A DNA stretch of 64,000 nt from a virus. Position 1 is the first letter of the stretch; each line of letters starts with the position of its first letter. Below the pieces are notes generated by a model. That model saw nothing but the letters and a program-made list of their open reading frames with translations. It had not been told where the DNA came from and did not search any database. Location: the UHGV virus genome UHGV-1375844. One strand, 5' to 3'. Made by a program: the position numbers and the translations under genes. Below are positions 2,226 through 21,104 of the stretch, piece after piece.

Positions 2226-2243
2226 TAGAATTTCCTTGTTTTT

Positions 2244-2264
2244 AAAACAATTTGTTTTCTGATG
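2244..2264 (-). promoter_or_regulatory. Conserved promoter-proximal near-palindrome (AAACAATTTGTTTTCT family), copy 1, upstream of the VWA gene
   Basis: Plus-strand aaaacaatttgttttctgatg lies between a GATACA -10-like hexamer and the RBS of the gene starting at 2225; same motif at 8 other gene starts. Confidence 0.45.
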
Positions 2265-2339
2265 TGTGAAATGTATCACTGTACGAACAGGCCGCTAAAC
2301 TGTTCGTACAGGTCAACTTAGGGGATCAGGGAAGGACGT

Positions 2340-2561: not shown

Positions 2562-2814
2562 CCAACTACAACGGTTTCTAAACGTTTCTGAATACTACTA
2601 CCTATTGTATCAATAAGGAATATTTTCATATCAGATGTTTCTGCTTGCGTGACAATGAAAATGCAAATCATTATTCGCTTAAGTCTTGCCCTGTCTGGGA
2701 TTTAAGAGCATAATGTGCCGCCAACAAATGATAGATAAGTCTTTACAACCCTGACCTTTGATGTAATATCAGTAAGCACTTACCAGAGACAAATAAAACA
2801 CGCAGGGTTTAATC

Positions 2815-3195: not shown

Positions 3196-4293
3196 GAAAT
3201 TTATACGAATAAGCTCTGTCGCTAGACGATCTCCCTTGAAATTATGGTCTATCTCGTCTAAATCTGGTTGTTCTACGATGGATGCGATGTACGCCGAAAA
3301 TTTACATAAGGCGTCTCGCATTTCATCCATATAGTCGTGACGGTCGTAAACCCGATCTATACCTTCAAGGCTATGGTTCATGATTTTACGAGAGACTTCC
3401 TGATTAATACCCAGGGCAGGGAAATAGCTACGCGCAGTTCTTCGCAGATCGCGTGGGGTGAAAACCTCAACCTCCATCAACTCCGGACGTTCCAAAATCC
3501 TCCGGAGCGCCTGTGATATGGCTACTTTAGACATTGGCATGTCCTTATCGCGTTTCTTGTTTGAGGGCACCAGCCACTGGCTGTCTTTCCCATATTTAAA
3601 CAGTTCCTCGACGCACTTCCTCATCAGCGGGCTTAACGGTAGAGCATGTTGCCTGGCCGATTTATTACGTGTGCCTTGATTCCATACATCACGTTGAAGG
3701 TTGAACTCACTCTTCTTGGCCCGGAGCACTTCATCGGGTCGCCTGGCAGCCACGAGACATAATCTGGCCGCCCACTTTGTCCCTTCGCATACGTTGAAAT
3801 AATCCCAGACGTTCCAAAAAACCCAAACTTCGGCGTCCGTTAGCTTCCGTTCCCGGGGCGTAGGTTTGGCGCCACCAGCGACTTTGTTGAGCGACATATC
3901 GTTCAACGGCGACGTTTCGATGACCCCCTGGAAGGCGCACCAGCCCAAAAACTGCTTCATCAGGGAAAACACACGCCTGCCCATGACGATCTTCCCTTCC
4001 AGAATGAGCGGGTTCACCAGCTGGTTGACGAGAACCCTACTAATGTCACTTACTTTTACATCAGAGATAAAAGGTAAAACATGTATCAAAACACAATGGA
4101 CGGCGATCTCCGGTCGGCGTCTTGTTATGAGTAAAGATAAGCGAGTGAATAACAAGAAGGCATCTGAAAACTTCATGTCGCCACTTACCAGAGAGGCTGC
4201 CATCGCATTCATTTGCGAAGCCCGTTCCAGAAACTCAATCGCTTCTCGTGAGGTGTTTTCGGCTGCGCGTGCTCGATCAAACGAATTTTTCAT
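3187..4293 (-). CDS. int: Tyrosine recombinase / phage integrase (P4-like)
   Basis: C-terminal FTPRDLRRTARSY ... NHSLEGIDRVYDRHDY matches the box II / catalytic Tyr region of tyrosine integrases, but with Arg where the first box II His is usual; 368 aa. Confidence 0.75.
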   Translation of the reverse strand: MKNSFDRARAAENTSREAIEFLERASQMNAMAASLVSGDMKFSDAFLLFTRLSLLITRRRPEIAVHCVLIHVLPFISDVKVSDISRVLVNQLVNPLILEGKIVMGRRVFSLMKQFLGWCAFQGVIETSPLNDMSLNKVAGGAKPTPRERKLTDAEVWVFWNVWDYFNVCEGTKWAARLCLVAARRPDEVLRAKKSEFNLQRDVWNQGTRNKSARQHALPLSPLMRKCVEELFKYGKDSQWLVPSNKKRDKDMPMSKVAISQALRRILERPELMEVEVFTPRDLRRTARSYFPALGINQEVSRKIMNHSLEGIDRVYDRHDYMDEMRDALCKFSAYIASIVEQPDLDEIDHNFKGDRLATELIRINFSH

Positions 4294-4559
4294 AGTCCAA
4301 TCACTTAGTTAGCCGTAACACTGTATGTATAAACAGTATATTAGGCATTGTTTCTTATGGGATCAAGCCTAACGTTACAGTGATTTTACCAATGATTCCA
4401 TACTTAATAGGTATGGAATCATTAGAGGGCATTTTTTTGAATTTTTACCAGTATTTGGGGGGAGAGATTATGGAAACAGTGACCAGTTGCAGAAACGATT
4501 AAAAAAGAGTGGCTAAGCGCGGTAAGCCCAAACCGAATGAAGAGTTACCGCGCGAAATT

Positions 4560-5183
4560 TTAAAAATCTTCCGCTTGTTCGTACCAGTCGCGTTCGGTAT
4601 CCGATTCTATGCGAGTAATTTCAAAATCCTCATCAATAAAATTCCACTTTTCATCACGCCATGACAAACGAACTTTGGCCTCTACATCAAACTCTGTACC
4701 GGAATAAACATGGTCAGGCAGCTGATCGCCCAAATAGTTGAATGCCACCTGCATGTCAAGAATACCCTTTGTTTCATCGTAAGCAGTATCGAGTACCGTT
4801 AGATCATCAATGACGAAACCTTCGGCGTTCGTGGTTGCGATATCTGCTGCTAACTCGTCATCCACGGCCATTTCAAGAGAGAGAAAGGGGCCATTATGAT
4901 AGATAGCTTCTTCGAAATTATTGTCACCAAAAGCGGCCATTAACAAACGAGACTCAAGCGGCGTTTCTTTGGAAACCTTAGTAAGCTCATGATAATTAGA
5001 GAAGTTCGAGTTTTTGGCGATGATCTCTAATGCCTGAGAATGCGTGAGAGAAACATCTGAGCGAGCCAGTTTTTTGGCTTTGGTTTTGATGAGTTCAAGA
5101 CAAGAATATTGTGACATGGCCGTTCTCCAAATTTCTGACGCTTTTGGAAACCGATAGCCTGCTAACCGGACTCCGCGCGTCAC
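4560..5183 (-). CDS. Hypothetical acidic protein (likely start at internal Met, MSQYSCLELIKTK)
   Basis: ORF track; no recognisable motif. Confidence 0.45.
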   Translation of the reverse strand: MTRGVRLAGYRFPKASEIWRTAMSQYSCLELIKTKAKKLARSDVSLTHSQALEIIAKNSNFSNYHELTKVSKETPLESRLLMAAFGDNNFEEAIYHNGPFLSLEMAVDDELAADIATTNAEGFVIDDLTVLDTAYDETKGILDMQVAFNYLGDQLPDHVYSGTEFDVEAKVRLSWRDEKWNFIDEDFEITRIESDTERDWYEQAEDF

Positions 5184-5385
5184 AAATGTGGGCGAGCCAA
5201 GTATTTTAAGGGTAAATCATGATGGGCTATTGCTTCGCGAGACAGGCGCCAGGTGACCATCACCACCTGGCGTCATAATGGCAAATTCATCTAATTAAGT
5301 CAAACTGAGCATCTCTGGTGCGGGTTGATCCAAAAAGATTGCCGTATAAATTACTATTACTGAACGTGGCTAATGTGGGCCTTTT

Positions 5386-5634
5386 TCATAGCGTACTCAC
5401 CAGTGCCGCAAATTCTGTATAACCCCCGATAGGCTCACCATTTACGAACACCTGCGGTATGGTTTCCACCGGCTTGCCAACCAGGTCGCTCAACTTCTCT
5501 TTGTCGATCCCGGCCGCCATGATGTCAATGTATTCGTAATCACCAAAGCCGTGGCCCTGCAGCTGCTTCGCCAGCTCGACCGCACGTTTGCAGTATGAGC
5601 AATTATCGCGTCCGTAGATAACGACCTTCATCAC
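5386..5634 (-). CDS. Glutaredoxin (NrdH/Grx-like)
   Basis: 82 aa; VVIYGRDNCSYCKRA CxxC active site and TIPQVFVNGEPIGGYTEF glutaredoxin signature. Confidence 0.8.
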   Translation of the reverse strand: MMKVVIYGRDNCSYCKRAVELAKQLQGHGFGDYEYIDIMAAGIDKEKLSDLVGKPVETIPQVFVNGEPIGGYTEFAALVSTL

Positions 5635-5996
5635 TTCACCTCGTGCAGCTGCTGCTTGAGAAGATAGCCTTCCAGGGGCCAGATTTTGGCAATCGCGTTC
5701 TGGCGTGCAATTTTACGTCCGATCTCCGGATCAAAGTTCTCCGGGCTGGCGCACGCAGACTCGCCAGTTACCGTGTAGCCGTTCTCCAGCACAAGAACGC
5801 AGAAGGTCAGCAGTTCGAGTGATTGCGGGGCCGGCTCAGGCTCTTCCTGCTTCAGCCACAACGGTGAGCTGCGATATCCGTCCGCGCCGGTAAAGTAAAA
5901 CTCGCCTGAGATAACGGCTTCGATGCGTTCCGGGGTAACACGCGCGGCCGTTTTGCCTTTGGCCACGATCTCTTTCTCGATATCCATATCGGTCAT
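5631..5996 (-). CDS. Gp49-like phage protein (PF13876-like)
   Basis: 121 aa; segment VTGESACASPENFDPEIGRKIARQNAIAKIWPLEGY resembles the N4 gp49 / Sf6 gp66 family as I recall it; 4-nt overlap with the glutaredoxin gene. Confidence 0.45.
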   Translation of the reverse strand: MTDMDIEKEIVAKGKTAARVTPERIEAVISGEFYFTGADGYRSSPLWLKQEEPEPAPQSLELLTFCVLVLENGYTVTGESACASPENFDPEIGRKIARQNAIAKIWPLEGYLLKQQLHEVK

Positions 5997-6011
5997 TTTG
6001 GTTTCCTTACG

Positions 6012-6242
6012 TTAAAAACGAGCAATCCGGGTACGAAGAATCAGCTCATAGGCTTTCATCGCGTCCAGCTGCTTAATGAGCATGTTGCGGTCGACATCAG
6101 GGAGACGACTAAAAATCTCGGTGGCTGTGAAGCACTCCAGCTTGAAAATACGGCGCGACAGATCTTCCTGTTCCTCTATCACGCGCTGCTGGTGAGGCAG
6201 ATATTCTTTGGTCACGCTTATCTCCTTATTGGTAGGCTTCAA
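6012..6242 (-). CDS. Hypothetical small protein (76 aa)
   Basis: ORF track; overlaps the end of the PhoH gene by 17 nt. Confidence 0.4.
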   Translation of the reverse strand: MKPTNKEISVTKEYLPHQQRVIEEQEDLSRRIFKLECFTATEIFSRLPDVDRNMLIKQLDAMKAYELILRTRIARF

Positions 6243-6999
6243 GCGCTATTTTGCATAACTCAGACCGTACACAGTCCTCGCTCTCAAACTCAATCCGACC
6301 AACATATTCAGACGGCTTAAAGCGCTCCATAGCGTCTTCCAGCCCGGATTTGACGCTGCCAGGAAGATCGCATTGGGTGATGTCCCCGTTAACGATAACC
6401 GTGACGTTTTCTCCCATACGGGTCAGGAACATTTTCATTTGTGACGCTGTCACGTTTTGAGCTTCATCCAGAATCACCACAGCGTTTTCGAAAGTGCGCC
6501 CACGCATGTAAGCGAAGGGGGCAATCTCCACTTTGGCCACCTCTGGCTTTAAGTAGTATTCGAGAAACGAGCCACCCAGACGCTTCTGTAGCACGTCATA
6601 GACTGGCCGGAAGAACGGAGCGAACTTCTCGCTCATGTCGCCCGGAAGAAAGCCCAGATCTTCGTCTGCTTGCAATACCGGCCGAGTCACGATGATCTTG
6701 TCTACTTCCTTATTAAGTAGACGCTGCGCTGCAACGGCCGCGGCCAGGTACGTTTTACCGCAGCCAGCTTCGCCAGTGGCGAACGTTAGCGTTTTGGTAT
6801 CGAGGGAGATGAGATAGTGGGCCTGGGCCTCGTTTCGCGCTTCGAGAGGAGAGTTGTCGCGCTTCGGTTTCGGAGGCAGAGCAGGGGCGGCAGCCAGTTC
6901 GTCAACAATGATTGTGTCAATTTCATAGCCACGAATACGTGATTTTGACTTCAGCGCCTGGCGAGCTGCGCGACGCGCCTGTTTACGTTTGTTTCCCAT
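6226..6999 (-). CDS. phoH: PhoH-like ATPase
   Basis: Walker A GEAGCGKTYLAAAVAA and downstream PhoH-like motifs; start re-placed at the internal ATG at 6999 (MGNKRKQARR) which has AGGA 6 nt upstream. Confidence 0.85.
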   Translation of the reverse strand: MGNKRKQARRAARQALKSKSRIRGYEIDTIIVDELAAAPALPPKPKRDNSPLEARNEAQAHYLISLDTKTLTFATGEAGCGKTYLAAAVAAQRLLNKEVDKIIVTRPVLQADEDLGFLPGDMSEKFAPFFRPVYDVLQKRLGGSFLEYYLKPEVAKVEIAPFAYMRGRTFENAVVILDEAQNVTASQMKMFLTRMGENVTVIVNGDITQCDLPGSVKSGLEDAMERFKPSEYVGRIEFESEDCVRSELCKIALEAYQ

Positions 7000-7046
7000 G
7001 TTGAGTCCTTTCAAGTGAGTCACCGGCCTGACTATAGCTAAATATG

Positions 7047-7066
7047 ATAAGTAAGTCATTACTTAT
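7047..7066. repeat. Intergenic palindrome family (ATAAGTAAG-n-CTTACTTAT), copy
   Basis: ataagtaagtcattacttat between the PhoH start and the plus-strand moron. Confidence 0.6.
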
Positions 7067-7205
7067 TTATCGTGGCTTTGTGCTAGGTTAAAACAGCTTT
7101 GGGGAGCTGGTGCGCTTAAGGCCTTCCAGAAAACTCAAACTAGCTGAAATAGTAGGGTCAATTAGGTATCATTCCTTTTCAAATTTAACCAAAGACTCTT
7201 ATAAA

Positions 7206-8438
7206 ATGCCTGCTTTGTTAATTCTCATAATTGGGACATTGATGATTATTTTCTGGGATGTGATTAAGGAAAACGTAGAGGTTATAGGTACGCTTGCCAC
7301 TTCACTTGCCTTTTTTGCTACTGCCTGGGCTGCTTACGAGGCAAGGCATAGTGCAAAGGCGGCAATGAAGGCGACCCAGCTGACGGCTGATTCACTTCTT
7401 GAAATGAAAAAAGCCTCTTTTAAGGAGTGGTACGGCATTTTACTTGAACAGCATAATAAATTACTTGAGGATGTTAATAAGACCTTATTGGATGACAATG
7501 AACTTAATACCAGGTTGAATATTAATGTCATAAGAGGTATTTATTATCACGTAACCAAAAATCCTGCTTACATTAAGTATATTAATCACATAATTTTAAT
7601 CCTGAATTATGTAGATAAAGACTTTTATCTGCCGTCCTCGGCGGAAAATGAAAAGAGATCTTATATAGAACAGTTGCGCAACAGCATTAGCCCAAAAGTA
7701 AGCCTGCTGATTGCTATTTTTGGCCTTAATATCGACAATAATAAAACTTATGATGCAAAGAAACTTTACAACCTTCTAAGCAAATATAACTTTTTTGAAA
7801 ATGAGCTATTTTTTGAAGTTGCAATATCAAAAGTTCATTACTTAGACACTTATGTCGCCGAGATATTTGACAAAGAATACCGAAAAGACGTTGAATTTTA
7901 TGTTGATGAAACGGTTTGTGGTCGTGCGCTCTCTTTTATCAATACGACATGCCGACACCATAGGATTACTTTCGCAGTTCAGTGGTCTTACAACAACCCC
8001 TGCCAAAAGCATTTGCTGAAAAGATTCAATGACCTACCTATGCACATGAGAAACGTCATTGGGCTGAACATGGAAAAAGCAGCCGAGAAAGTGGCTACGT
8101 TTAATTCTGAGTTGCCTGGTTTTGTCGGCTGGGAAATTAAGATTGCTAATAATAAGGTGAGAGTAATTAAGGATGAAAAAGAACTGAAAAGGCTAATAAA
8201 GCTTTACTATAAATACCCCTTTGACCCTCGACAAACTGGTATCGTGTTAACCAATGGTTTCACCAATAGATTCGCCGATGAGATTAGGAATAGTATGTCT
8301 AGCTATGCTTTACATAAAGCCTATCTAGAACTCAGCTCTAATCCGAACAAAGATCAGGTAATTGATGAGATTGTGTCAGAGGTTGAAAAAATGGTCGATA
8401 AATTTAAAACAGAACTTAATTCTTTCTGCTTTAACTGA
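7206..8438 (+). CDS. Hypothetical membrane-anchored protein, AT-rich moron
   Basis: Only plus-strand gene in a minus-strand block; markedly AT-rich, K/N/I/Y-rich; N-terminal hydrophobic helix (PALLILIIGTLMIIFW); own terminator; ORF track begins at GTG 7110, first ATG at 7206, no clear SD. Confidence 0.55.
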   Translation: MPALLILIIGTLMIIFWDVIKENVEVIGTLATSLAFFATAWAAYEARHSAKAAMKATQLTADSLLEMKKASFKEWYGILLEQHNKLLEDVNKTLLDDNELNTRLNINVIRGIYYHVTKNPAYIKYINHIILILNYVDKDFYLPSSAENEKRSYIEQLRNSISPKVSLLIAIFGLNIDNNKTYDAKKLYNLLSKYNFFENELFFEVAISKVHYLDTYVAEIFDKEYRKDVEFYVDETVCGRALSFINTTCRHHRITFAVQWSYNNPCQKHLLKRFNDLPMHMRNVIGLNMEKAAEKVATFNSELPGFVGWEIKIANNKVRVIKDEKELKRLIKLYYKYPFDPRQTGIVLTNGFTNRFADEIRNSMSSYALHKAYLELSSNPNKDQVIDEIVSEVEKMVDKFKTELNSFCFN

Positions 8439-8446
8439 CTAAAAGA

Positions 8447-8474
8447 AAAGGGGCCGAAGCCCCTTTGGATTTTG
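8447..8474. terminator. Bidirectional rho-independent terminator
   Basis: ggggc-cgaa-gcccc hairpin flanked by an A-run (8441-8449) and a T-rich run (8464-8473); sits between convergent genes 7206..8438 (+) and 8639..9250 (-). Confidence 0.7.
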
Positions 8475-8638
8475 CGCTGAAAAAAGTCTAACTACGATGC
8501 TAAGAAGCACTATGGTTAAGAACGTCTGCCGTGTCTATCACAGCGTTGAACGGTCTGGGTGACGTTAGCGGAGTCATTTAGTGAATGGAATCCCAAACCG
8601 TTCAGCGATGTGCTGGCCTCCGCAGAGGCCAGTCGGTA

Positions 8639-9250
8639 TTACGATTTGCCGGCGTTAACTACCACGCCCTGGCGACGAGAGTCAGCTTCGGCAATCTTCA
8701 GTCGAGTTTCGCGTTCGGCCTTCAGCTCGCCCTGCAATTGGGCCACCTGCGACTCAAGGAACTCGATACGAGAGTCTTTCGCGGCGCTGGATGCGTTCAG
8801 TTCCGCCATTTCCACACGATGATCAGACTTCAGCTGGTTGACTTCCGCAGTAAATTTGCTGGCAGCTGCGCTATAGCCAGCTTCGCGAGCTGTGTTAACC
8901 GCCTCTTCGTTGTTGTCCAGCGCGTTTTCAAGATCGCGCTTAAGCTGAGTCAGCTCGACGTTGGAAATGCTGGCCAGACCGCGCTTCTTCATCAGATCCG
9001 CAAGTACGCCATCTTCGTTTTCGATTACCTTCAGACGCAGTTCCGCAGCCTTTTCTCGCTCTTTACTTGCGAACTGGCTATCCAGACCAGCCAGCTCAGC
9101 CTGGCGATATTCAATTTCTTCGGCCAACGTAACGCTGGTTTGTGAAAGGGTGTTCAGCTCGGTCGCAACCTTCGCCATATCACCGGCAGCTTTAACCATT
9201 GCTTTGGTGGAACGCTCAGTTAGGGAGATGACTTTCTTAACTTCGGACAT
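8639..9250 (-). CDS. Hypothetical coiled-coil protein
   Basis: 203 aa, heptad-rich (AELAGLDSQFASKEREKAAELRLK..., VAQLQGELKAERETRLK); immediately downstream of the tRNA cluster. Confidence 0.5.
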   Translation of the reverse strand: MSEVKKVISLTERSTKAMVKAAGDMAKVATELNTLSQTSVTLAEEIEYRQAELAGLDSQFASKEREKAAELRLKVIENEDGVLADLMKKRGLASISNVELTQLKRDLENALDNNEEAVNTAREAGYSAAASKFTAEVNQLKSDHRVEMAELNASSAAKDSRIEFLESQVAQLQGELKAERETRLKIAEADSRRQGVVVNAGKS

Positions 9251-9275
9251 GTGTTTTCCTTCGTCGCTTTTATAT

Positions 9276-9362
9276 TGGCGGAAGGTAATGGAATCGAACC
9301 ATCACCGCGCTCGCAGTGGGACGGTTTTCAAGACCGCTTGAGCACCATGCTCCCTACCTTCC
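9276..9362 (-). tRNA. tRNA-Ser: tRNA-Ser (anticodon UGA), class II with long variable arm
   Basis: Reverse complement gives GGAAGGT...GGTCTTGAAAACCG...GGTTCGATTCC...ACCTTCCGCCA; 7-bp acceptor stem, encoded CCA, anticodon loop CTTGAAA. Confidence 0.7.
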
Positions 9363-9604
9363 GTTATTTAGTGTGGTGGCCGGCGCTGATCTCCGGCATA
9401 ACAACCCGACTTAAATTCGCGACTTTAAATCGGTTCCTCCGTTTGTCCACTTTAGCCCGGAGTTAGCAACCTCAGTCACTCACCGATATGCCTATCGGTG
9501 GCGCGCATCAGCCTGCGCATTCACCACAACGGTGAGAGCACTCTTGGCGAACCTGTAGATTGGGCTATGATCCCGTTACAAGCGAATGCTCTTACCTGTT
9601 GTGT

Positions 9605-9737
9605 TGGTGCCGGTTAACGGACTCGAACCGTTGACCTCTGGCCTAACATCGGATCGTTGTCATTGACCAGCCATGCTGTCTACCGAAGTAGAAACGATGC
9701 TTTGGCTCTCGCGCTCTACCAACTGAGCTAAACCGGC
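9605..9737 (-). tRNA. tRNA-like element with a ~58-nt internal insertion (disrupted or intron-bearing tRNA)
   Basis: Reverse complement starts GCCGGTTTAGCTCAGTTGGTAGAGC (acceptor + D arm) and ends AACGGTTCGAGTCCGTTAACCGGCACCA (T arm + acceptor + CCA), but 79 nt separate the D arm from the T arm; the insert contains a UUCG-tetraloop hairpin (tctac-ttcg-gtaga). Confidence 0.35.
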
Positions 9738-9739
9738 AT

Positions 9740-9814
9740 TGGCGATGATGGGTGGATTCGAACCACCGACCAGTTGATTAACAGTCAACCGCTCTACCAC
9801 TGAGCTACACCATC
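9740..9814 (-). tRNA. tRNA-Asn: tRNA-Asn (anticodon GUU)
   Basis: Reverse complement GATGGTGTAGCTCAGTGGTAGAGCGGTTGACTGTTAATCAACTGGTCGGTGGTTCGAATCCACCCATCATCGCCA folds as a canonical cloverleaf; anticodon loop CTGTTAA. Confidence 0.8.
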
Positions 9815-9829
9815 AATTTCGCAGCGGTA

Positions 9830-10530
9830 CTGGCTTCAAAGATGAAGTTTTCCCGCAACTTGCACTTTGCGTTAGTGCCAGACGAGGCTTGCGGCTCGCT
9901 CAAATAGAGCGAAGATCTTAAACACTGCTCGGTGCTTCAGAGAGCGCCGGGGAGTCAGATCTTATTGGATGTATGGAATCATCCGTGTTGTGGCAGCTAC
10001 ATGCTAAAACCAGAGGGTATTACTATTGCCACAACGTTGAGGCCACTAAACCAGTAATGTTTGCCCAACATCTTTGTCAGTCGCTACAGCCTCTGTGGAT
10101 TCACCTGTATGATTGAAAGAAACAGTGGCCTCAACGTTGTGTGCTGGCTAACCAGGCCAGCCGGGTTACGTCGCCGATCTTCTTTAACCCAAGACAAAAC
10201 GACATAAGTAATGGAAATGACGTAACAGGATGAACGGTCGATAACTGAAACCGGGATAGGTGAATGGAATGAGGAAACCAACCGCCCATCCTGTTACTTC
10301 ATCGGAGAGGGCATGGGTGGTGCCGTATCATGCCCTCTCCTGCGTTCTGCAATCACACTCGCTCAGTGTGTCCCATTTCGGTGACGAGGCTGGAAACTGA
10401 CCTCGCTGGTGTTTGGCTTATTATGCTACTGCCAGATACTGATTGTCGTTTGCAGTTATCTTTAAACGTTCAAACAGTCGCGTACTAACGAAAACAAAGC
10501 AATCTTATACATATCATAAAAATAAGTAAA
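9830..10530. other. ORF-poor, highly structured non-coding region (candidate ncRNA or origin)
   Basis: Perfect 17-bp inverted repeat acaacgttgaggccact (10031-10047) / agtggcctcaacgttgt (10124-10140); perfect 12-bp-stem hairpin ggagagggcatg (10304-10315) / catgccctctcc (10329-10340); 11-bp inverted repeat gtaacaggatg / catcctgttac; no convincing ORF. Confidence 0.4.
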
Positions 10531-11359: not shown

Positions 11360-12682
11360 TCATTCCTTGTCTCCTATGCGATCTTCCGTATCACGTAAGC
11401 AGCGCGGCCACTTCAATCGAGGGTGACGCAAACTACCGTCTGGCGTTTTCTCGTGACAGTGAACCTCTACAATGCGCCCGCGATACTTCTCCTGATTGTT
11501 CCAAATTTCATCCAGGTAACGGTGCTTTATGCCACTGGCTCGAACGACAACTCCATTCTCCAGCCGGATAACGATTTTCCCCAATGTATGTGCAAAACCA
11601 GAGTCCGGATCGCCTGGCTCGAAGTCGATAATTTCCCCGTCTTCAGAGTCTTCGTCTTTTAGCTTCCACCAGCTGCGGGAGCGCTTAAACTCATAAACAG
11701 AATCCGGATCTTTGCCCATCTCCCCTTCTTCATTGTCATCGAGGCGTTTCATAAAGCGCTCAATGAAGTCTTCATGGCTATGGATTATGTAGAACGGGTG
11801 CAAATGGATGTCCGGTGCATAGTCTTCACCGCGGGTGTTTCTGAACCATGCCACCAGCGAGGACAGGCGTTCTTTCAGCTTCATGCCCGTCTTCGCATAT
11901 TCTTTTGACTTAGCCAGAGAGCGCCATTCCGGCAAGAAGAAGTCAAAAATGTGATAGACCGCGCCGATCGCTTTTACGTTTTTCTTCCGCAGCGCGGAAA
12001 CAGACTGATTGAACGAACCTGCAGTTCCCTCTCCATCAAAGAAAATGTGTTTGTGGCCAGTGAGTCTCCCCAGCTCTAACATGGCCGGCTTTAAGTGATC
12101 GAGCGAAGTGATCGGGTTGCCTGTACGTGAAAGGAAATTAACCTCTTCCTCATCGACAATGACCTCACAAATGACGCGCAGCCCATCCAGCTTGAGGCTG
12201 CCGATCATTGGCCATTTTGCCTTCGGATTTGGCTTGAACGGATATTTGTCGCCTTTCTCCTTATATGCTGTTGCCAGCTGCACCTCGAACTTGGGAATTG
12301 GGGTTTCAAATACCTTGTTGCATAAACTTATGCCAACGCCGGCTTTCGGATCTTTGAGCAGAAAGCGGCGAAAAACATCCTGCCCATCAGCGCACATCGA
12401 GGCCACAATAGACTCAACGGCAGTGATGGCCGCATTACCGGTTAGTTCGCGTGCTGCGAGTTTCTCCAGTAACTCAACTGCCTTTTCATCGCTTGGAACC
12501 GACTGTTCCAGCGGCATGGCCACTTTATATTTCTTTACCCCGAATCGAATAAACGGGTTGAGCATCAGCGAAACCATGCTCTGTTCGAAAGCATCCATGC
12601 TGGCCAATGCCTCTTTTTTGGCATTGGTTCCCATCGTTTTAATGGCATCCAGCTTATGCTTCAAGGCGATCAATTTTTCCAT
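11360..12682 (-). CDS. ATP-dependent DNA ligase
   Basis: 440 aa; adenylation motif I K-x-D-G (SLKLDGLRVICEV). Confidence 0.8.
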   Translation of the reverse strand: MEKLIALKHKLDAIKTMGTNAKKEALASMDAFEQSMVSLMLNPFIRFGVKKYKVAMPLEQSVPSDEKAVELLEKLAARELTGNAAITAVESIVASMCADGQDVFRRFLLKDPKAGVGISLCNKVFETPIPKFEVQLATAYKEKGDKYPFKPNPKAKWPMIGSLKLDGLRVICEVIVDEEEVNFLSRTGNPITSLDHLKPAMLELGRLTGHKHIFFDGEGTAGSFNQSVSALRKKNVKAIGAVYHIFDFFLPEWRSLAKSKEYAKTGMKLKERLSSLVAWFRNTRGEDYAPDIHLHPFYIIHSHEDFIERFMKRLDDNEEGEMGKDPDSVYEFKRSRSWWKLKDEDSEDGEIIDFEPGDPDSGFAHTLGKIVIRLENGVVVRASGIKHRYLDEIWNNQEKYRGRIVEVHCHEKTPDGSLRHPRLKWPRCLRDTEDRIGDKE

Positions 12683-16805: not shown

Positions 16806-17531
16806 TCAACAGAAACGCCGCGCTTCTTCCAGCTCTTCCGGAAAGTGGGCGTAGATAACTCGCTCAGGCACAACTTCCATGAGCCAGATGGCAGAAAAAA
16901 TTATGCGTATGCGCTTATCCCGGGTGATGCCACGTAAACGCTCCAGAACCCACTCAAAATAGCTTTCCTGAATCGGGTCGTGCTGCATGTCTCCCATATG
17001 CTTAAAACTCACCAGAGAGTCATCCAGACGGGTTACAGCGCGTTTAGCTAACTTCTCTTCGAATATCTCGATTAGCTCTGGCTGCCAGAGATGTTGTGGG
17101 CGAGGTAATTTGTCCCACAACCGGCGTGCAGCTGCGGAGAGAACGGTGGAGATGAAGTAGTCATAAGAGCAGCAATAACGATCTGCGAACTGCCTGGCTT
17201 TCCAGAGAGAAGTCTTATTGGCTGTGGATAGCTCCTGATATGGCAAACGCTTCAGGCCAGTTGTAAACGGTGCTGTCTCGAAGTGTTCACGTCCATGCGA
17301 CAGCATGATGTAGGAGTACTGCCGCTTGTATGCTTCGGTGAACAGACATGTCGCCATTAGCGGGTGCATATCGCGGTAGTCGAACCACTTGGAGTCATAC
17401 AACTCGGCCTCATCCTTACAGCGCGAAAGACCGATGTTTTCGGCCACCCACTTGTCCATGACAGCGGTGTCCCACTCCTTCATGAAGGCGTACTGGTCGT
17501 TGTCGATAGTGTTGAAGAAAATCTGGCTCAT
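16806..17531 (-). CDS. Hypothetical protein (241 aa)
   Basis: ORF track; no motif recognised. Confidence 0.5.
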   Translation of the reverse strand: MSQIFFNTIDNDQYAFMKEWDTAVMDKWVAENIGLSRCKDEAELYDSKWFDYRDMHPLMATCLFTEAYKRQYSYIMLSHGREHFETAPFTTGLKRLPYQELSTANKTSLWKARQFADRYCCSYDYFISTVLSAAARRLWDKLPRPQHLWQPELIEIFEEKLAKRAVTRLDDSLVSFKHMGDMQHDPIQESYFEWVLERLRGITRDKRIRIIFSAIWLMEVVPERVIYAHFPEELEEARRFC

Positions 17532-17544
17532 GTGATCCGCTATG

Positions 17545-17563
17545 GTAGGTAGTTACTTACTTA
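17545..17563. repeat. Intergenic palindrome family, copy
   Basis: taggtagttacttacttat. Confidence 0.5.
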
Positions 17564-17649
17564 TCAAAGTGAGCGAATCATAACGACTGGAGACAGCTTT
17601 TGGAAGTGGCAACTGAAGGGAATGTGTCTGGGAAGCTCGTTGTGAAAAG

Positions 17650-17706
17650 ACCTGCTTCCGTATAAATAATAATAAGTAACTTAGTATTTATATACAGAAG
17701 CAGGTT
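17650..17706. repeat. Long palindrome A (CCTGCTTCCGTATA - AT-rich centre - TATACGGAAGCAGG family)
   Basis: acctgcttccgtata ... tatacagaagcaggt, 14 of 15 arm positions paired, ~27-nt AT-rich centre; second copy at 51708-51765. Confidence 0.6.
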
Positions 17707-17720
17707 ATAAAATCCTTTAT

Positions 17721-18131
17721 CTATTTTTCGATAACTCTTTGTTCAACTTCTTGCATCTGCTTTTCAGTGAGACTAGAAATGTGTTGATTCAGCAACAGAT
17801 TGCGGTAGAAACTTTTTTGAGCCTCCGATAAATCCTGTCGCTTATCAATGTTTCTCAAAGCATTGCCGTAACTCTCGCTGATCGCATCACCATTGAATGC
17901 CTCAATAATGGTTTTCACATTCATAGCCAAGACGCCAAAGATAAAACAACCAGTGTTGTATACCCAGTCTACAACAAACCCTTTGGCGTACAAGAAAGGG
18001 GTTAAAATGTGAAGAATAACCCAAAGCAAAGCGCCAATTATTATTCCAAAAGCAGTTCTAAGCGGATAGCCCAAAAACAGAATATCTATTGCCCGATTTA
18101 AATTCCGACTAAAGAAATCATGATCTGGCAT
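17721..18131 (-). CDS. Hypothetical membrane protein (136 aa), AT-rich
   Basis: Two predicted TM helices; last gene of the ParA operon; start overlaps upstream gene. Confidence 0.5.
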   Translation of the reverse strand: MPDHDFFSRNLNRAIDILFLGYPLRTAFGIIIGALLWVILHILTPFLYAKGFVVDWVYNTGCFIFGVLAMNVKTIIEAFNGDAISESYGNALRNIDKRQDLSEAQKSFYRNLLLNQHISSLTEKQMQEVEQRVIEK

Positions 18132-18762
18132 CTAAAACCCCCTTTCCCAATTCTTCCCCTGGAATTTCTTCCGAGGCAGGGGTATTAAATATTTTACGCC
18201 TTCTGCCGCTTCCACCATCATCGATCTTGTCGATATTATTTTCGATGAACTTTAAAAGCTGTATAGCCTCTGTACTATTGTTGCCGTAAAACCCTTTGGA
18301 AATACGATATGTCAGAACGCGCTCTTTCAGCTCAAGTAAAACAAAGACAACAATCCCGATAATAGTTACAATGGGGCTAAAGCCCCAAAAGTAACCCATT
18401 GAAGCACCAAGAAAAATCATCAGCACCGATAAAAACTTAACCTTAAGGAAGGTTTTTTTCTCATATAAAAGATAAAGCTCGGAAATAGTTTTCCTTTTCA
18501 AAAACTCTTGCTCTTTCTTTAAATTGTCCTCATGTTTTGCTTTTATCTCTTGTAATTTTATTCTGTACTCTTCTGATTTTATATAACTCAATGTATTACG
18601 ATACAAGAAACTACATACCATACCTATCATTGAGCCAATAACAGAAATGACACCTTGGTTTGAAATTCCCAACAACCCCATAACCTTTCCAAAGATCACG
18701 GCGGCTATAATGGCTAACATTAGACCTACGAACCATCCGAAATGTCTATTCAGGAATTTCAT
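18118..18762 (-). CDS. Hypothetical multi-pass membrane protein (214 aa), AT-rich
   Basis: Several hydrophobic helices; K/E-rich coiled segment; composition clearly more AT-rich than flanking genes. Confidence 0.5.
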   Translation of the reverse strand: MKFLNRHFGWFVGLMLAIIAAVIFGKVMGLLGISNQGVISVIGSMIGMVCSFLYRNTLSYIKSEEYRIKLQEIKAKHEDNLKKEQEFLKRKTISELYLLYEKKTFLKVKFLSVLMIFLGASMGYFWGFSPIVTIIGIVVFVLLELKERVLTYRISKGFYGNNSTEAIQLLKFIENNIDKIDDGGSGRRRKIFNTPASEEIPGEELGKGVLDARS

Positions 18763-18766
18763 TATA

Positions 18767-19126
18767 TTAGCCTTTCTTCATCAGCTCGCGCTTGATCTCG
18801 TCTGTGCGCATCGTGACGTCAGCAGCGGTGATCGCCTCGTTCAGTTTCACAATGTCCTCGATTTCCTGCGGCGACTTCTCTGCCAGATGGTAAATGGCTG
18901 CACGAATCACGTCAGAACGGGTGAACTTCTCAAAGCGAGGGATGAATTTCATCATCTCCAGCAGATCGAAGTATTCGTCCTCCAGCGACATGGTACGGCT
19001 CTTTATTTTCTCTTTCCCACGAGTCGGGCGGCCCTGTGGTCTGACTGGCTGGCGCAACGGCGTGCTGTTTTTGGCCGGAGCATCCGGTTCTTTGCGCTTG
19101 GCAAGGTCTCCCATCTTCATGGACAT
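18767..19126 (-). CDS. Small basic protein, candidate ParA partner (centromere-binding, ParG/ParB-like role)
   Basis: 119 aa, basic N-terminus; start/stop junction with parA. Confidence 0.4.
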   Translation of the reverse strand: MSMKMGDLAKRKEPDAPAKNSTPLRQPVRPQGRPTRGKEKIKSRTMSLEDEYFDLLEMMKFIPRFEKFTRSDVIRAAIYHLAEKSPQEIEDIVKLNEAITAADVTMRTDEIKRELMKKG

Positions 19127-19791
19127 TACTCTTCCTCCAGACTCAAGATATAATCAACAAACTGTTCAAACTCGGCTTCTGCCTTCTTGTCGCGTTCGGC
19201 GCCAGTCATTTCAAAGATAGAGCGACCAGCCTCTTCTGCATCATCGTAAACGTTACGGTTGTACAAATTGACCGGTGCAGCTTCGATACCAAACGTCTCA
19301 ACGATTTCTTTGGCGGCCAGAATACGCGACACCTGGGAAGGTAGTGACGGGCACTGGTTGATAACGGCACGTATTTTCACCTTCTCGTTCACATTGCGTA
19401 CATTGTCGATAATCGGGTCGATGTCGCGCAGCGATTTCAGGTCACGACGTTTAGGGCGCAGCGGTATGACGATAACATCAGCCATCAGCATAGCTTGTCG
19501 CTGGATTTCGGAGTCGAAGCCCCCTGCGTCTACAACCACGTAATCGAAGCGCCCCTGAAGCGATTTGAGATGCTTAACGACGTCTTCCTGAACGTAAGCG
19601 AAAGGAATGAGATCGAGATCTTCATTCTGTCGACGGTCTTCGCACCAGCTGGTAGTGGTGCGCTGGATGTCGATGTCGGTAACTTGGATTTTCTTTTTCT
19701 TTTTGACTTTCAGGCAAACCGCTATTTGCTGGGCAACGGTCGATTTACCCGGGCCACCCTTCGTGCCGCCAACCACAATGATCCTAGTCAT
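19126..19791 (-). CDS. parA: ParA/MinD-family partition ATPase
   Basis: Deviant Walker A GGTKGGPGKST at the N-terminus; 221 aa; unusual KKKKKI insertion encoded by an A-rich tract (19681-19700). Confidence 0.75.
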   Translation of the reverse strand: MTRIIVVGGTKGGPGKSTVAQQIAVCLKVKKKKKIQVTDIDIQRTTTSWCEDRRQNEDLDLIPFAYVQEDVVKHLKSLQGRFDYVVVDAGGFDSEIQRQAMLMADVIVIPLRPKRRDLKSLRDIDPIIDNVRNVNEKVKIRAVINQCPSLPSQVSRILAAKEIVETFGIEAAPVNLYNRNVYDDAEEAGRSIFEMTGAERDKKAEAEFEQFVDYILSLEEE

Positions 19792-19825
19792 TGAATAGTT
19801 CCCTTTGCGTGAATTATTGTCGTAT

Positions 19826-19845
19826 GAAACAACTTGTTTTCTTAT
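19826..19845 (-). promoter_or_regulatory. Conserved promoter-proximal near-palindrome, copy 3, upstream of parA
   Basis: gaaacaacttgttttcttat, 35 nt upstream of the parA start. Confidence 0.4.
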
Positions 19846-19986
19846 ATGCGATATAGCCTAAATGCCTACGGCTGCGGTGTAAAGGTGAAATGGTAGGTAT
19901 TATCGAGATAGAGAGGGTCTTGAGATTAAGAATGAGAAGAGGTAAACAACTTTTGGCGAGAAGGCGGCACATAGCCGCCAGACTGT

Positions 19987-20736
19987 TTATTTAGTGTATA
20001 GGCCGACAGGTGCTCTTGAGCAACGAGAGATGATTAGAACAATGAACTTCTGTACATTGACCTGAACTTTGTTAGGCAGCCATGAACTGAGTTCGGGATC
20101 GAGCAGTAACCCACGATTCCAAGGTAAAAAACCCGTGTTCTTGCCCATGCCGTATTCACCCAGCACGTCCTCGAACGTTTCTGTTTTGGCATTGTATATA
20201 CGCACATCGCCGGTACGCATGAGAGGGCCAGCCCAGATCTTAGCGCCAGGAATGGTTTGTTTATCGTCGCAGACTAAATGCTCGTACCAATGAAGAAGGA
20301 AAAGATAGGTACGGTGACACAATCCTCGCTGACGAAGCGCTCTGACGGTTTCGACCCCTGCTACCTGGTAACAGTCAATCTCGTTGCCGTCTTCAATAAA
20401 ACTATATCCACGCAGAGCTATCCTGCCGGCGATCGTGTTTTTGCTTTCGTCCAGCAGTCCGGACTGGAGCGCCTCTTTGATGATCTCTTCTTCAGGGGCA
20501 TCTTCATCAGCTCGATCTAAGATAAATTCACTCAGGTCGCCCTGGTCGTGCGCGCCGACTCGCTCCATAGAGACATACAGGCAAATGTCATCTTCTGGCT
20601 CGATGATTTCAATTTCTGAGATTTTATAGAGGGAGGCTTCGTTGATGAGAAAGCCAAAACGAGCAACACGAGTCTCCCCTTGATGAGGAAACTCGCTTAG
20701 ATCTTTTGAATATGCGGTATCTAGTGTAGGAGCCAT
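19987..20736 (-). CDS. Hypothetical protein (249 aa)
   Basis: ORF track; acidic; no motif recognised. Confidence 0.45.
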   Translation of the reverse strand: MAPTLDTAYSKDLSEFPHQGETRVARFGFLINEASLYKISEIEIIEPEDDICLYVSMERVGAHDQGDLSEFILDRADEDAPEEEIIKEALQSGLLDESKNTIAGRIALRGYSFIEDGNEIDCYQVAGVETVRALRQRGLCHRTYLFLLHWYEHLVCDDKQTIPGAKIWAGPLMRTGDVRIYNAKTETFEDVLGEYGMGKNTGFLPWNRGLLLDPELSSWLPNKVQVNVQKFIVLIISRCSRAPVGLYTK

Positions 20737-21104
20737 CTTGTAGCAGAGTCATCAGCCTTAACCGTACTGACAATGCTACCATGATTACGTAAGAAGCGGC
20801 GAATAGAATGTTCAATAACCTCCGAAAAAGCCTCGATAAAACGAGACAGCTCAGGGTACTGTTTGGCTGGCTTCACTACAAAACGAACACGACCATTCAG
20901 GTAAATTGCTTCAGCCAACGGTTTCACGCTTGCACCGGCGCGCTCGACATCGTCTTTAAAGGTAACGATGAAGCGTGAGTCTTCAGGTTCAATAGCGTCG
21001 TTATTGAGCTTACGTACTTCGAGCTTGTGCTGATGCAGCACATGAGTCTCGATAATACTCGTGCAATCGCGAATAGTTTGTATAGAACGTTTCTCGTTCA
21101 GCAT
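20721..21104 (-). CDS. Hypothetical protein (127 aa)
   Basis: ORF track. Confidence 0.45.
   Translation of the reverse strand: MLNEKRSIQTIRDCTSIIETHVLHQHKLEVRKLNNDAIEPEDSRFIVTFKDDVERAGASVKPLAEAIYLNGRVRFVVKPAKQYPELSRFIEAFSEVIEHSIRRFLRNHGSIVSTVKADDSATRWLLH

What the first reader, a model, noticed from the sequence alone, without database searches (positions are those of the whole stretch)
17721..19845. ParA-type operon carrying two AT-rich membrane proteins in an integrase-encoding phage
A ParA/MinD-family ATPase with a deviant Walker A box and a small basic partner are followed in the same operon by two hydrophobic, AT-rich proteins (214 and 136 aa). Partition systems in phages usually indicate a plasmid-prophage lifestyle (N15 and P1 are the paradigms), yet a tyrosine integrase is also present, so the lysogenic mode is ambiguous. 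The membrane proteins are not part of any canonical par locus and could be a cargo system or novel ParA-associated factors.
Basis: partly seen in the sequence, partly recalled or inferred. Interest (0 to 1): 0.55.

Follow-up and report, generated by a model that had tools for sequence, protein, structure and literature searches.

The report
Membrane gene pair in par-operon hotspot
The partition operon of this SSU5-type phage-plasmid ends in a swap-in slot for anti-phage genes, and here the slot holds an uncharacterised pair of membrane-protein genes that travels between phages, satellites and plasmids and is probably a new phage-exclusion system, not part of plasmid partition.

Summary
The four minus-strand genes exist as described. 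They are a ParF-like (type Ib) ParA, a small basic partner, and two AT-rich membrane proteins (214 aa with 4 TM; 136 aa with 2 TM), tightly coupled and closed by a strong hairpin.

The lysogenic mode is not ambiguous. The window is 99.7% identical to a circular 106.6-kb Salmonella plasmid and is an SSU5-family phage-plasmid. The tyrosine integrase is a backbone gene of that family.

The membrane genes are cargo, not ParA factors:
- The same ordered, overlapping pair occurs without ParA in P2-like prophages and in integrase/AlpA/primase islands.
- Some SSU5-like elements have an empty slot.
- The pair has 37-39% GC, against 50-54% for parA and its partner.

Among 74 SSU5-like contigs, the slot between the partner's stop codon and the hairpin holds PD-T4-3, PD-T7-5, DUF2971/PDC-S31, a KAP NTPase (PDC-S49), an unknown ~357-aa protein, this pair, or nothing.

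The large protein's family has 368 representatives at 50% clustering. It matches no Pfam, PADLOC or PDB entry.

Best reading (about 0.5): an inner-membrane superinfection-exclusion or abortive-infection system expressed by par-operon read-through. No function was tested.

The parts
19792..19898 (-). Conserved about 107-bp leader upstream of parA. This is the putative par promoter/operator and a candidate centromere region. It contains the palindromes TATATCGCATATA (19843-19855) and AAACAAGTTGTTT (19827-19839).
   Evidence: It is nearly invariant in 7 relatives whose coding DNA is only about 76-86% identical, and similarity stops abruptly upstream of 19898. No iterated repeat array was found. 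The simple promoter scan did not score it. Function is inferred.
19126..19791 (-). parA: a type Ib (ParF-like) partition ATPase of 221 aa with the deviant Walker A motif KGGPGKST.
   Evidence: Pfam AAA_31/MipZ/CbiA/VirC1. phrog_164 at E=6e-52. NCBIfam ParA_partition at E=3e-34, but 118 bits against a cut-off of 180. The nearest solved structure is TP228 ParF (4dzz), E=4e-13, over residues 7-199.
18767..19126 (-). Partner gene of 119 aa: a basic, probably disordered N-terminal half and a helical C-terminal half. It is the presumed centromere-binding protein (ParB/ParG analogue).
   Evidence: phrog_5111 over the full length. It is 91-98% identical across SSU5-like elements. The first 50 residues have net charge +7. 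Only a weak ribbon-helix-helix-type hit was found (aCcr1, E=1.4e-4, below cut-off). There is no PDB match and hhalign against ParG is negative.
18118..18762 (-). Cargo gene A (214 aa). Predicted inner-membrane protein: TM1-TM2, a charged cytoplasmic helix (about residues 55-107), TM3-TM4, then a conserved cytoplasmic C-terminal domain with the motif KE..L.YR..KG[YF]FG.N..EA..LIKFI..N.D.ID.
   Evidence: Hydropathy and charge distribution. All-helical AlphaFold model at low confidence, pLDDT 54. A profile search finds 368 representatives at E<=1e-3. R153 and E165 are invariant. No Pfam or PADLOC family matches any of 44 members. GC is 0.371.
17721..18131 (-). Cargo gene B (136 aa). Predicted 2-TM inner-membrane protein with a cytoplasmic N-terminal motif D..S....P.RT..G...G and a helical cytoplasmic tail. 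It is the obligate partner of A.
   Evidence: A homologue lies immediately downstream of, and overlapping, every A homologue: 36 of 36 loci plus 3 of 3 distant ones. AlphaFold pLDDT is 75 and the model is helical. Fold searches found nothing. GC is 0.389.
17711..18764 (-). The exchangeable cargo slot (hotspot) as occupied in this window. It runs from just after the partner's stop codon to just before the terminator hairpin.
   Evidence: Homology with Cyrano and L029 breaks at about 18765 and resumes at about 17710. Across 74 SSU5-like contigs the slot is empty or holds 7 other kinds of cargo.
17650..17705 (-). Conserved hairpin: 15-bp arms (17650-17664 and 17691-17705) followed by UCUUUUC. It is the presumed terminator of the par operon and the right-hand border of the slot.
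   Evidence: Inverted repeat I1. RNA fold of -23.6 kcal/mol, z=-4.7, with 0 of 200 shuffles folding as well. It is present in all relatives, and in empty-slot elements it lies about 30 nt after the partner's stop codon.

Best explanation
The locus is the type Ib partition operon (a ParF-like ParA plus a small basic DNA-binding partner) of an SSU5-family phage-plasmid that is maintained as a circular plasmid.

The 3' end of the operon, between the partner's stop codon and a conserved terminator hairpin, is a recombinational hotspot where different anti-phage genes are swapped in and out. In this window the slot holds a horizontally acquired, AT-rich two-gene cassette.

Inferred steps:
- The cassette is transcribed by read-through from the par promoter, one of the few units active in the plasmid-prophage state. 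The start of B is translationally coupled to the end of A.
- The two products form a hetero-oligomeric inner-membrane complex. Almost all of its non-membrane mass is cytoplasmic: the coiled-coil loop and conserved C-terminal domain of A, and the tail of B.
- The complex protects the lysogen against superinfecting phages. It would do so either by blocking genome entry at the inner membrane (superinfection exclusion) or by permeabilising the membrane on sensing infection (abortive infection).

Shown:
- the anatomy;
- plasmid status;
- independence of the pair from ParA;
- the hotspot nature of the slot;
- strict co-inheritance of A and B;
- the absence of any known family.

The remaining inferences are co-transcription, complex formation and anti-phage function.
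For: Plasmid prophage: 99.7% identity to the circular plasmid NZ_CP030187.1 and SSU5 synteny.

Type Ib ParA: ParF is the best PDB match.

Cargo, not partition:
- The pair occurs with the same order and overlap in Enterobacter and K. aerogenes chromosomal int/AlpA/D5-primase islands without ParA.
- It occurs in P2-like prophages upstream of baseplate gpV, with the P2 capsid gene further upstream, or beside gpD/ogr.
- It occurs in a metagenomic accessory region next to MqsRA.
- Four SSU5-like contigs have an empty slot, with the hairpin about 30 nt after the partner's stop codon.

Hotspot: of 74 slots, 25 hold PD-T4-3-like genes (E=1e-23), 4 hold PD-T7-5, 19 hold DUF2971/PDC-S31, 6 hold PDC-S49/KAP NTPase, 17 hold an unknown ~357-aa protein, 1 holds a lipoprotein, 7 hold the TM pair and 4 are empty. 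PD-T4-3 and PD-T7-5 are experimentally validated defence genes (PMC9519451). A DUF2971 protein is listed as validated system DS-45 (supplement of PMC13092281).

In the chromosomal islands the pair is immediately followed by PD-T7-5 (E=7e-131).

Foreign composition: GC 0.37-0.39 against 0.50-0.54 for the neighbours. The pair is AT-rich in every locus examined.

Fast divergence or allele replacement: A is 30-74% and B is 34-70% identical in elements whose ParA, partner, 241-aa gene and helicase are 82-99.8% identical. dN is 5-8 times that of the neighbours, with omega about 0.1.

A and B diverge together: Pearson 0.96 over 29 pairs.

Topology by the positive-inside rule puts all K/R-rich segments in the cytoplasm.

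Circumstantial: an SSU5-like Klebsiella plasmid lowers phage burst and plasmid uptake by an unknown mechanism (PMC8969562). Its sister plasmid pKp1 (CP086286) carries the pair (H17).
Against: - No functional data exist for any family member. Every database name is 'hypothetical protein'.
- Guilt by location is indirect. Hotspots also carry non-defence morons, and one slot occupant is a lipoprotein of unknown role.
- No PADLOC model matches. There is no similarity to the TM-containing validated systems DS-13 and DS-34.
- Structure models are poor or uninformative, so no pore or channel architecture is shown.
- Co-transcription with parAB is inferred only from spacing.
- The slot survey uses non-dereplicated IMG/VR contigs, so the counts are sampling-dependent.
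- The A-B covariation could reflect shared descent alone.
Confidence: 0.5

Rival explanations
1. The pair is an addiction or stability module: a membrane toxin with a membrane antitoxin, or a post-segregational killing device. It would sit beside the partition genes to reinforce plasmid-prophage maintenance. Anti-phage activity would be absent or secondary.
For: - It lies next to the par operon, where plasmid stability functions cluster.
- TacAT/KacAT-type TA modules flank the same par operon in relatives.
- It is a two-gene, translationally coupled architecture with a small second gene.
- It is found on mobile elements that benefit from addiction.
Against: - It also occurs in integrated P2-like prophages and at moron positions, where segregational loss is not an issue.
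- The slot's other occupants are defence genes, not TA modules.
- No Rfam antisense RNA was found, and there are no Pfam TA families.
- Both proteins are equally conserved and both are polytopic, unlike typical small hydrophobic toxins.
Confidence: 0.15
2. The pair serves some other lysogenic-conversion or phage-lifecycle function at the membrane. Examples are lysis-timing control (holin/antiholin-like), ion or solute transport, envelope-stress modulation, or blocking conjugative or plasmid DNA entry instead of phage entry.
For: - These are small polytopic membrane proteins with short periplasmic loops.
- In P2-like prophages the pair lies upstream of baseplate gpV, downstream of the capsid gene and, by synteny with P2, after the lysis and tail-completion genes.
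- The Klebsiella p2 plasmid also reduces plasmid uptake (PMC8969562).
Against: - The element has its own holin, endolysin and Rz cassette elsewhere (window about 21.3-22.8 kb).
- The pair is dispensable and interchangeable with validated defence genes in the same slot.
- No transporter or holin Pfam family matches at E<=0.1.
Confidence: 0.2
3. The membrane proteins are novel ParA-associated factors, for example a membrane tether or regulator for the partition ATPase.
For: - They are in the same operon, directly after parA and its partner.
- The association recurs in SSU5-like elements down to a very divergent one (L040: ParA 66% and A 34% identical).
Against: - The pair occurs without any ParA in chromosomal islands, P2-like prophages and other contexts.
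- The same parA-partner operon exists with an empty slot or with unrelated genes, some on the opposite strand.
- The composition is foreign.
- The pair is replaced by about 30%-identical alleles while ParA stays about 95% identical.
Confidence: 0.04

Closest known systems
TP228 ParF/ParG type Ib plasmid partition system
   Same: - A small ParA (about 206-221 aa) with a deviant Walker A motif and no N-terminal DNA-binding domain. ParF is the best PDB match.
- It is followed by a small partner with a basic flexible N-terminus.
- A conserved regulatory region lies upstream of parA.
   Different: - The partner (119 aa) shows no detectable sequence similarity to ParG, and its RHH fold is unproven.
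- No array of short centromere repeats was found.
- The operon is extended by a cargo slot.
[quoted passage not shown] 2022, PMC9122126; Vassallo et al. 2022, PMC9519451; PMC13586616)
   Same: - A fixed position between conserved backbone genes carries mutually exclusive, AT-rich, rapidly exchanged anti-phage cassettes.
- The same systems (PD-T4-3, PD-T7-5) appear.
- The TM pair itself is shared with P2-like prophages and a satellite-like island.
   Different: - The hotspot is embedded in the 3' end of a plasmid partition operon of a phage-plasmid.
- I found no description of this position in the papers searched.
Membrane-based prophage exclusion and abortive-infection systems (lambda RexA/RexB, T4 Imm, P22 SieA; from general knowledge) and TM effectors of defence systems
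   Same: - Small polytopic inner-membrane proteins expressed from a prophage in the lysogenic state.
- A two-gene organisation, as in RexAB.
   Different: - No sequence or fold similarity was detected.
- Both components here are membrane proteins and no soluble sensor is present.
- Activity is untested.
DS-13 ('TMO1') two-gene transmembrane defence system from DefensePredictor (PMC13092281)
   Same: A validated E. coli defence system made only of two small TM-containing hypothetical proteins.
   Different: - It has 183 aa with 1 TM plus 233 aa with 2 TM at the N-terminus.
- hmmsearch with the A and B profiles gives 7 bits or fewer, so there is no homology.
P1 and N15 plasmid-prophage partition systems
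   Same: A phage maintained as a low-copy plasmid with its own ParA-type partition operon. P1 likewise carries a tyrosine recombinase (Cre) without integrating (general knowledge).
   Different: - P1 and N15 use type Ia systems, with a large ParA and an HTH ParB.
- This one is type Ib and carries a cargo hotspot.

Membership tests
Type Ib ParA (ParF-like partition ATPase) | Deviant Walker A motif KGGxxK[ST] | tested here: met
   KGGPGKST at residues 11-18, read from the translation. AAA_31, CbiA and MipZ hits.
Type Ib ParA (ParF-like partition ATPase) | Small size (about 200-220 aa) without an N-terminal HTH, with end-to-end similarity to ParF | tested here: met
   221 aa. Residues 7-199 align to ParF 6-189 at E=4e-13.
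Type Ib ParA (ParF-like partition ATPase) | Reaches the curated NCBIfam ParA_partition (NF041546) cut-off | tested here: not met
   118.2 bits against a cut-off of 180. It is a relative, not an equivalog.
Type Ib ParA (ParF-like partition ATPase) | Cognate centromere made of iterated short repeats next to the operon | tested here: inconclusive
   Only a 107-bp ultra-conserved leader with two palindromes was found. There is no repeat array.
Type Ib ParA (ParF-like partition ATPase) | Stabilises a plasmid together with its partner | not testable with these tools
   This needs a plasmid-loss assay.
ParG/omega-type ribbon-helix-helix centromere-binding protein | RHH fold in the C-terminal part | tested here: inconclusive
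   A weak aCcr1 (RHH) hit at E=1.4e-4, 21.7 bits against a cut-off of 60. There is no PDB hit and hhalign against ParG 1p94 is negative. No structure prediction was run for it.
ParG/omega-type ribbon-helix-helix centromere-binding protein | Basic, flexible N-terminal tail | tested here: met
   13 K/R, net charge +7, and a Pro/Gly/Arg-rich composition in residues 1-50.
SSU5-family phage-plasmid | Nucleotide similarity and synteny with SSU5, and existence as a circular extrachromosomal replicon | tested here: met
   About 83% identity and the same gene order as SSU5. 99.7% identity over 25 kb to circular plasmid NZ_CP030187.1.
Mobile-element defence hotspot | A fixed slot between conserved flanks with mutually exclusive, variable content that includes validated defence genes | tested here: met
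   74 loci with 8 content classes, including PD-T4-3, PD-T7-5 and an empty state. The boundaries are sharp.
Known anti-phage defence systems (PADLOC-DB v2; DS-13, DS-34) | Sequence match of A or B to a catalogued defence protein | tested here: not met
   No PADLOC hit for the window proteins, the chromosomal copies or the 44 family members. Scores against DS-13 and DS-34 are 7 bits or fewer. Newer DefenseFinder models and DS-25 were not tested.
MotA/ExbB/TolQ/ZorA stator-like proteins | Match to the MotA_ExbB domain or to ZorA models | tested here: not met
   No Pfam or PADLOC hit in 44 members. The PDB MotA hit at E=0.041 resolves into two hydrophobic stretches with individual E-values of 8.8 and 69. 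Only the 2+2 TM topology is similar.
Holin/antiholin | Membership of a holin family, or a position inside the lysis cassette | tested here: not met
   No holin Pfam family matches at E<=0.1. The holin, endolysin and Rz cassette is a separate locus.
Toxin-antitoxin module | One component toxic and neutralised by the other | not testable with these tools
   This needs expression experiments. There is no TA Pfam family and no Rfam antisense RNA.

The most novel reading that the evidence does not exclude
The A/B pair is a previously unrecognised, widespread two-component inner-membrane anti-phage (exclusion or abortive-infection) system. It has no soluble sensor and no similarity to any catalogued system, and it shuttles between P2-like prophages, satellite-like islands and phage-plasmids. 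In SSU5-family phage-plasmids it, like other defence genes, is wired into the 3' end of the partition operon, so that plasmid maintenance and immunity are expressed as one unit.
Probability: 0.45. Interest if true: 0.65.

Novelty: new variant of a known kind. Interest (0 to 1): 0.5.

Why it matters
SSU5-family phage-plasmids are common in clinical Salmonella, Shigella, E. coli, Klebsiella and Enterobacter. This analysis pinpoints where they keep their interchangeable anti-phage genes, at the tail of the partition operon. That position explains how such genes stay expressed in the plasmid state, and it gives a simple genomic address for mining new systems.

The membrane pair is a concrete, easily cloned candidate of about 1.05 kb. 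Its large subunit belongs to a family of hundreds of sequence clusters with no Pfam, PADLOC or structural assignment. A second unknown occupant, of about 357 aa, comes from the same address.

If the pair is active, it would add a sensor-less, membrane-only architecture to the known defence repertoire. It might also explain the unexplained phage and plasmid resistance conferred by an SSU5-like Klebsiella plasmid.

If it is inactive against phages, the par-linked position would point instead to a maintenance function.

Tried and rejected
- Centromere repeats: the repeat finder and TRF found no iterated array near the operon. Only a conserved leader with two palindromes was seen.
- RHH/ParG identity of the partner: PDB profile search and hhalign against ParG (sequence verified as 1p94) were negative. 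The partner alignment has almost no diversity.
- Structure route:
  - AlphaFold gave pLDDT 54 for A and 75 for B.
  - Foldseek against PDB and BFVD gave nothing below E=1.
  - afdb50 was unavailable.
- MotA/ZorA-like stator idea: rejected as a hydrophobic-composition artefact, with no Pfam or PADLOC support.
- DS-33 and DS-37, reported in Salmonella SSU5-like elements:
  - DS-33 is a GNAT two-gene system. Its GNAT label suggests the TacT/KacT type seen upstream of parA in relatives; this link is an inference and was not tested by sequence.
  - DS-37 is a single gene.
  - Neither is this pair.
- DS-13 and DS-34 TM proteins: no homology.
- DS-25 ('TMO2'): different gene order and sizes (175 aa then 331 aa). 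No sequence was available.
- RefSeq accessions of the pair were not found in the (truncated) DefensePredictor tables.
- The search for related loci with the 44-sequence alignment failed because it was too diverse. The genome scan with a tighter alignment returned only one locus.
- The third homology search was candidate-capped and added little.
- Kp1604 p2 (CP085480) is not in the plasmid collection.
- Rfam found no RNA family in 17000-20500.
- The sigma-70 and terminator pattern scans found nothing useful on the operon strand.
Full report
**Observation.**
- parA: 19126-19791, 221 aa
- partner: 18767-19126, 119 aa
- membrane protein A: 18118-18762, 214 aa
- membrane protein B: 17721-18131, 136 aa

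The genes are packed as an operon. parA and the partner share a TAATG overlap, 4 nt separate the partner and A, and A and B overlap by 14 nt with a good Shine-Dalgarno sequence for B. A 15-bp-arm hairpin at 17650-17705, followed by UCUUUUC, closes the unit. Its RNA fold is -23.6 kcal/mol with z=-4.7.

ParA has the deviant Walker A motif KGGPGKST. It hits AAA_31, MipZ, CbiA and VirC1, phrog_164 and NCBIfam ParA_partition, the last below its cut-off.

The partner's first 50 residues carry net charge +7.

The two membrane genes have GC 0.371 and 0.389 (GC3 about 0.40). parA, the partner and the window have 0.502, 0.539 and 0.500.

Hydropathy gives four TM segments in A and two in B. By the positive-inside rule, every K/R-rich segment is cytoplasmic and the periplasmic loops are only 3-9 residues.

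**What the element is.** The region is about 83% identical to Salmonella phage SSU5, with the same gene order. The first 25 kb of the window is 99.7% identical to pSA20094620.2. That record is a complete circular 106,569-bp, IncFIB-typed, non-mobilizable plasmid of Salmonella enterica.

SSU5 is one of the reference phage-plasmids (PMC7969092; bioRxiv 10.1101/2025.09.12.675607), so the lysogenic mode is not ambiguous.

The tyrosine recombinase (3187-4293, PF00589) is a backbone gene. It is 87.5% identical in phage Cyrano, where it lies next to the repressor. Here it lies next to an XRE-family regulator. Its role was not tested. A role in multimer resolution, as in other plasmid prophages, is a plausible inference.

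**The partition module.** ParA's nearest solved relative is ParF of TP228, E=4e-13 over nearly the full length. That makes it a type Ib system.

The partner is 91-98% identical across SSU5-like elements. It gave only a weak ribbon-helix-helix-type hit (aCcr1). It has no PDB match and no profile similarity to ParG. Its fold therefore remains unproven.

Phage Cyrano annotates the partner as a 'RelE/ParE toxin'. That is probably an error.

The 107 bp upstream of parA (19792-19898) are almost invariant in seven relatives whose coding DNA is about 76-86% identical. Similarity stops abruptly upstream of this block. The block holds the palindromes TATATCGCATATA and AAACAAGTTGTTT. No repeat array typical of type Ib centromeres was found.

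**The membrane genes are cargo.** Three lines of evidence separate them from partition.

First, the same pair occurs without any ParA. It keeps the same order, a short overlap and similar lengths in each of these contexts:
- Enterobacter and Klebsiella aerogenes chromosomes, at the distal end of about 11-kb integrase/AlpA/Bro-N/D5-primase islands;
- P2-like prophages, upstream of the gpV baseplate spike with the P2 capsid gene further upstream, or beside gpD;
- a Xanthomonas campestris P2-like prophage, between gpD and ogr;
- a metagenomic accessory region next to MqsRA and a nuclease.

In every one of 36 loci with an A homologue, a B homologue follows immediately. The three most distant cases were confirmed separately, with E from 3e-16 to 3e-20.

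Second, the boundaries are exact. Homology with relatives that carry other cargo breaks at the partner's stop codon and resumes just before the hairpin.

Third, four SSU5-like contigs have an empty slot, in which the hairpin lies about 30 nt after the partner's stop codon.

**The slot is a defence hotspot.** I fetched 80 SSU5-like viral contigs using the conserved partner. I then classified what lies between the partner and the downstream 241-aa backbone gene, and 74 contigs were assessable.

| Slot content | Contigs |
|---|---|
| ~255-aa GIY-YIG protein matching PD-T4-3 (E=1.3e-23) | 25 |
| Unknown ~357-aa protein alone, or as two ORFs in one locus; no Pfam or PADLOC match | 13 |
| DUF2971/PDC-S31 alone (E to 3e-41) | 10 |
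| KAP-NTPase protein matching PDC-S49 | 6 |
| TM pair alone | 5 |
| PDC-S31 plus the ~357-aa protein | 4 |
| Empty | 4 |
| PDC-S31 plus PD-T7-5 | 3 |
| TM pair plus PDC-S31 | 2 |
| PD-T7-5 alone | 1 |
| Lipoprotein | 1 |

PD-T4-3 and PD-T7-5 are experimentally validated systems (PMC9519451). Both have been reported in SSU5-group phage-plasmids (10.1101/2025.09.12.675607). A DUF2971 protein appears as validated system DS-45 in the DefensePredictor supplement.

In the chromosomal islands the pair is followed directly by PD-T7-5 (E=7e-131).

The contigs are not dereplicated, so the counts show variety, not frequency.

**Evolutionary behaviour.** In elements whose ParA, partner, 241-aa gene and helicase are 82-99.8% identical to the window, A ranges from 30 to 74% and B from 34 to 70%. 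For example, in L032 ParA is 95.5% and the partner 95.0% identical, but A is 29.6% and B 34.6%.

A still more divergent allele (A 303 aa, 34% identical) occupies the same slot in a distant SSU5-like element.

A and B diverge together, with Pearson 0.96 over 29 unique pairs. This shows co-inheritance but not necessarily physical contact.

Both genes are under purifying selection (dN/dS about 0.10-0.13). Their dN is 5-8 times that of the flanking genes.

The pair is AT-rich relative to every host locus examined.

**How widespread and how known.** A word-indexed search found only Enterobacteriaceae relatives. An exhaustive profile search found 368 representatives at E<=1e-3. These share the TM3-TM4 hairpin and a cytoplasmic C-terminal motif, KE..L.YR..KG[YF]FG.N..EA..LIKFI..N.D.ID, with R153 and E165 invariant.

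- None of 44 diverse members matches any Pfam or PADLOC model.
- PHROGs lists both proteins as unknown.
- All source names are 'hypothetical protein'.
- tblastn finds the large subunit on 74 plasmids, all non-mobilizable and nearly all about 105-134 kb.
- Among 50,697 phage records, a search with the P2-type (L036) allele of A found relatives only in SSU5 and pJN2-26.
- Structure prediction gave helical, low-confidence models with no significant fold match.
- A borderline MotA hit is a hydrophobicity artefact.
- The pair is not DS-33, DS-37, DS-13 or DS-34.

**Mechanism (inferred).** The cassette has no room for its own promoter and lies inside the terminator. It is therefore probably transcribed with parAB, which would give steady low expression in the plasmid-prophage state.

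The two products probably form an inner-membrane complex whose soluble parts all face the cytoplasm.

Given the company the pair keeps, the most likely role is protection of the lysogen against other phages. This could work by blocking genome entry at the inner membrane or by infection-triggered membrane permeabilisation. TM proteins in defence systems are generally regarded as such effectors (PMC9122126).

I put this reading at about 0.5. The rivals are:
- another membrane-level conversion or lifecycle function (0.2);
- an addiction or TA-like stabiliser (0.15);
- a ParA accessory role (0.04).

A circumstantial link is that an SSU5-like Klebsiella plasmid reduces phage burst and plasmid uptake by an unknown mechanism (PMC8969562). 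Its sister plasmid pKp1 carries the pair, but p2 itself could not be checked.

**Verdict.** The par operon and the phage-plasmid lifestyle are ordinary and already known, and the integrase puzzle dissolves.

What remains of interest is twofold. First, there is a defence hotspot built into the 3' end of the partition operon, which I did not find described in the papers searched. Second, that hotspot holds an uncharacterised, strictly paired membrane module that moves among three classes of mobile element.

It is a good, cheap experimental candidate and not a demonstrated new system.

Noticed in passing
window 57604-58131 (+): A 175-aa protein matching Pfam Flag1_repress (FljA-type repressor of phase-1 flagellin) at E=2.7e-89, carried on a phage-plasmid. 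This may be a lysogenic-conversion function affecting flagellar phase.
   Followed up: no
window 7001-8438 and 58001-59100: Two further AT-rich islands (GC 0.369 and 0.375 against 0.50 for the window). They hold ORFs with no Pfam match: 442 aa at 7110-8438 (+) and 215 aa at 58453-59100 (+). They may be additional cargo slots.
   Followed up: no
window 19987-21104 (-); L001 7321-8477; L002 6334-7168; L008 5804-6601: The region just upstream of parA is also variable. The window has 249-aa and 127-aa genes. The 249-aa gene is only about 32% identical to its SSU5 counterpart. Cyrano and the Citrobacter plasmids instead carry a TacA/TacT (KacT, GNAT) toxin-antitoxin pair there. That pair may correspond to the validated GNAT system DS-33, but this was not tested by sequence.
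   Followed up: partly
L047 6421-7494 (-) and 16 other loci (e.g. L091, L111): An unknown ~351-374-aa protein occupies the same hotspot in 17 of 74 SSU5-like contigs. It has no Pfam or PADLOC match, so it is another untested defence candidate.
   Followed up: partly
L002 5024-5383 (phage Cyrano CYRAN_29): The 119-aa par partner is annotated 'RelE/ParE putative toxin' in Cyrano. It is 97% identical to the window's partner and shows no TA-family hit, so the annotation is probably wrong.
   Followed up: partly
L008 about 6650-6760 (Citrobacter plasmid CP057631): A long run of TTTTCAG heptamer repeats lies between the TacAT module and the conserved parA leader (alignment). No equivalent array exists in the window. 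It could be an iteron- or centromere-like array specific to that plasmid.
   Followed up: no
L004-L007 (Enterobacter / K. aerogenes chromosomes), 1-10227: About 11-kb integrase/AlpA/Bro-N/DUF4222/D5-primase islands end with the TM pair plus PD-T7-5, and different chromosomal flanks follow. They look like satellite-type elements with a distal defence cargo region.
   Followed up: partly
window 5383-7059 and 11360-12682 (-): The backbone carries PhoH (E=4.5e-75), a GrxA-family glutaredoxin and an ATP-dependent DNA ligase. These are unusual auxiliary genes for a temperate phage, but they are conserved in the SSU5 family.
   Followed up: no
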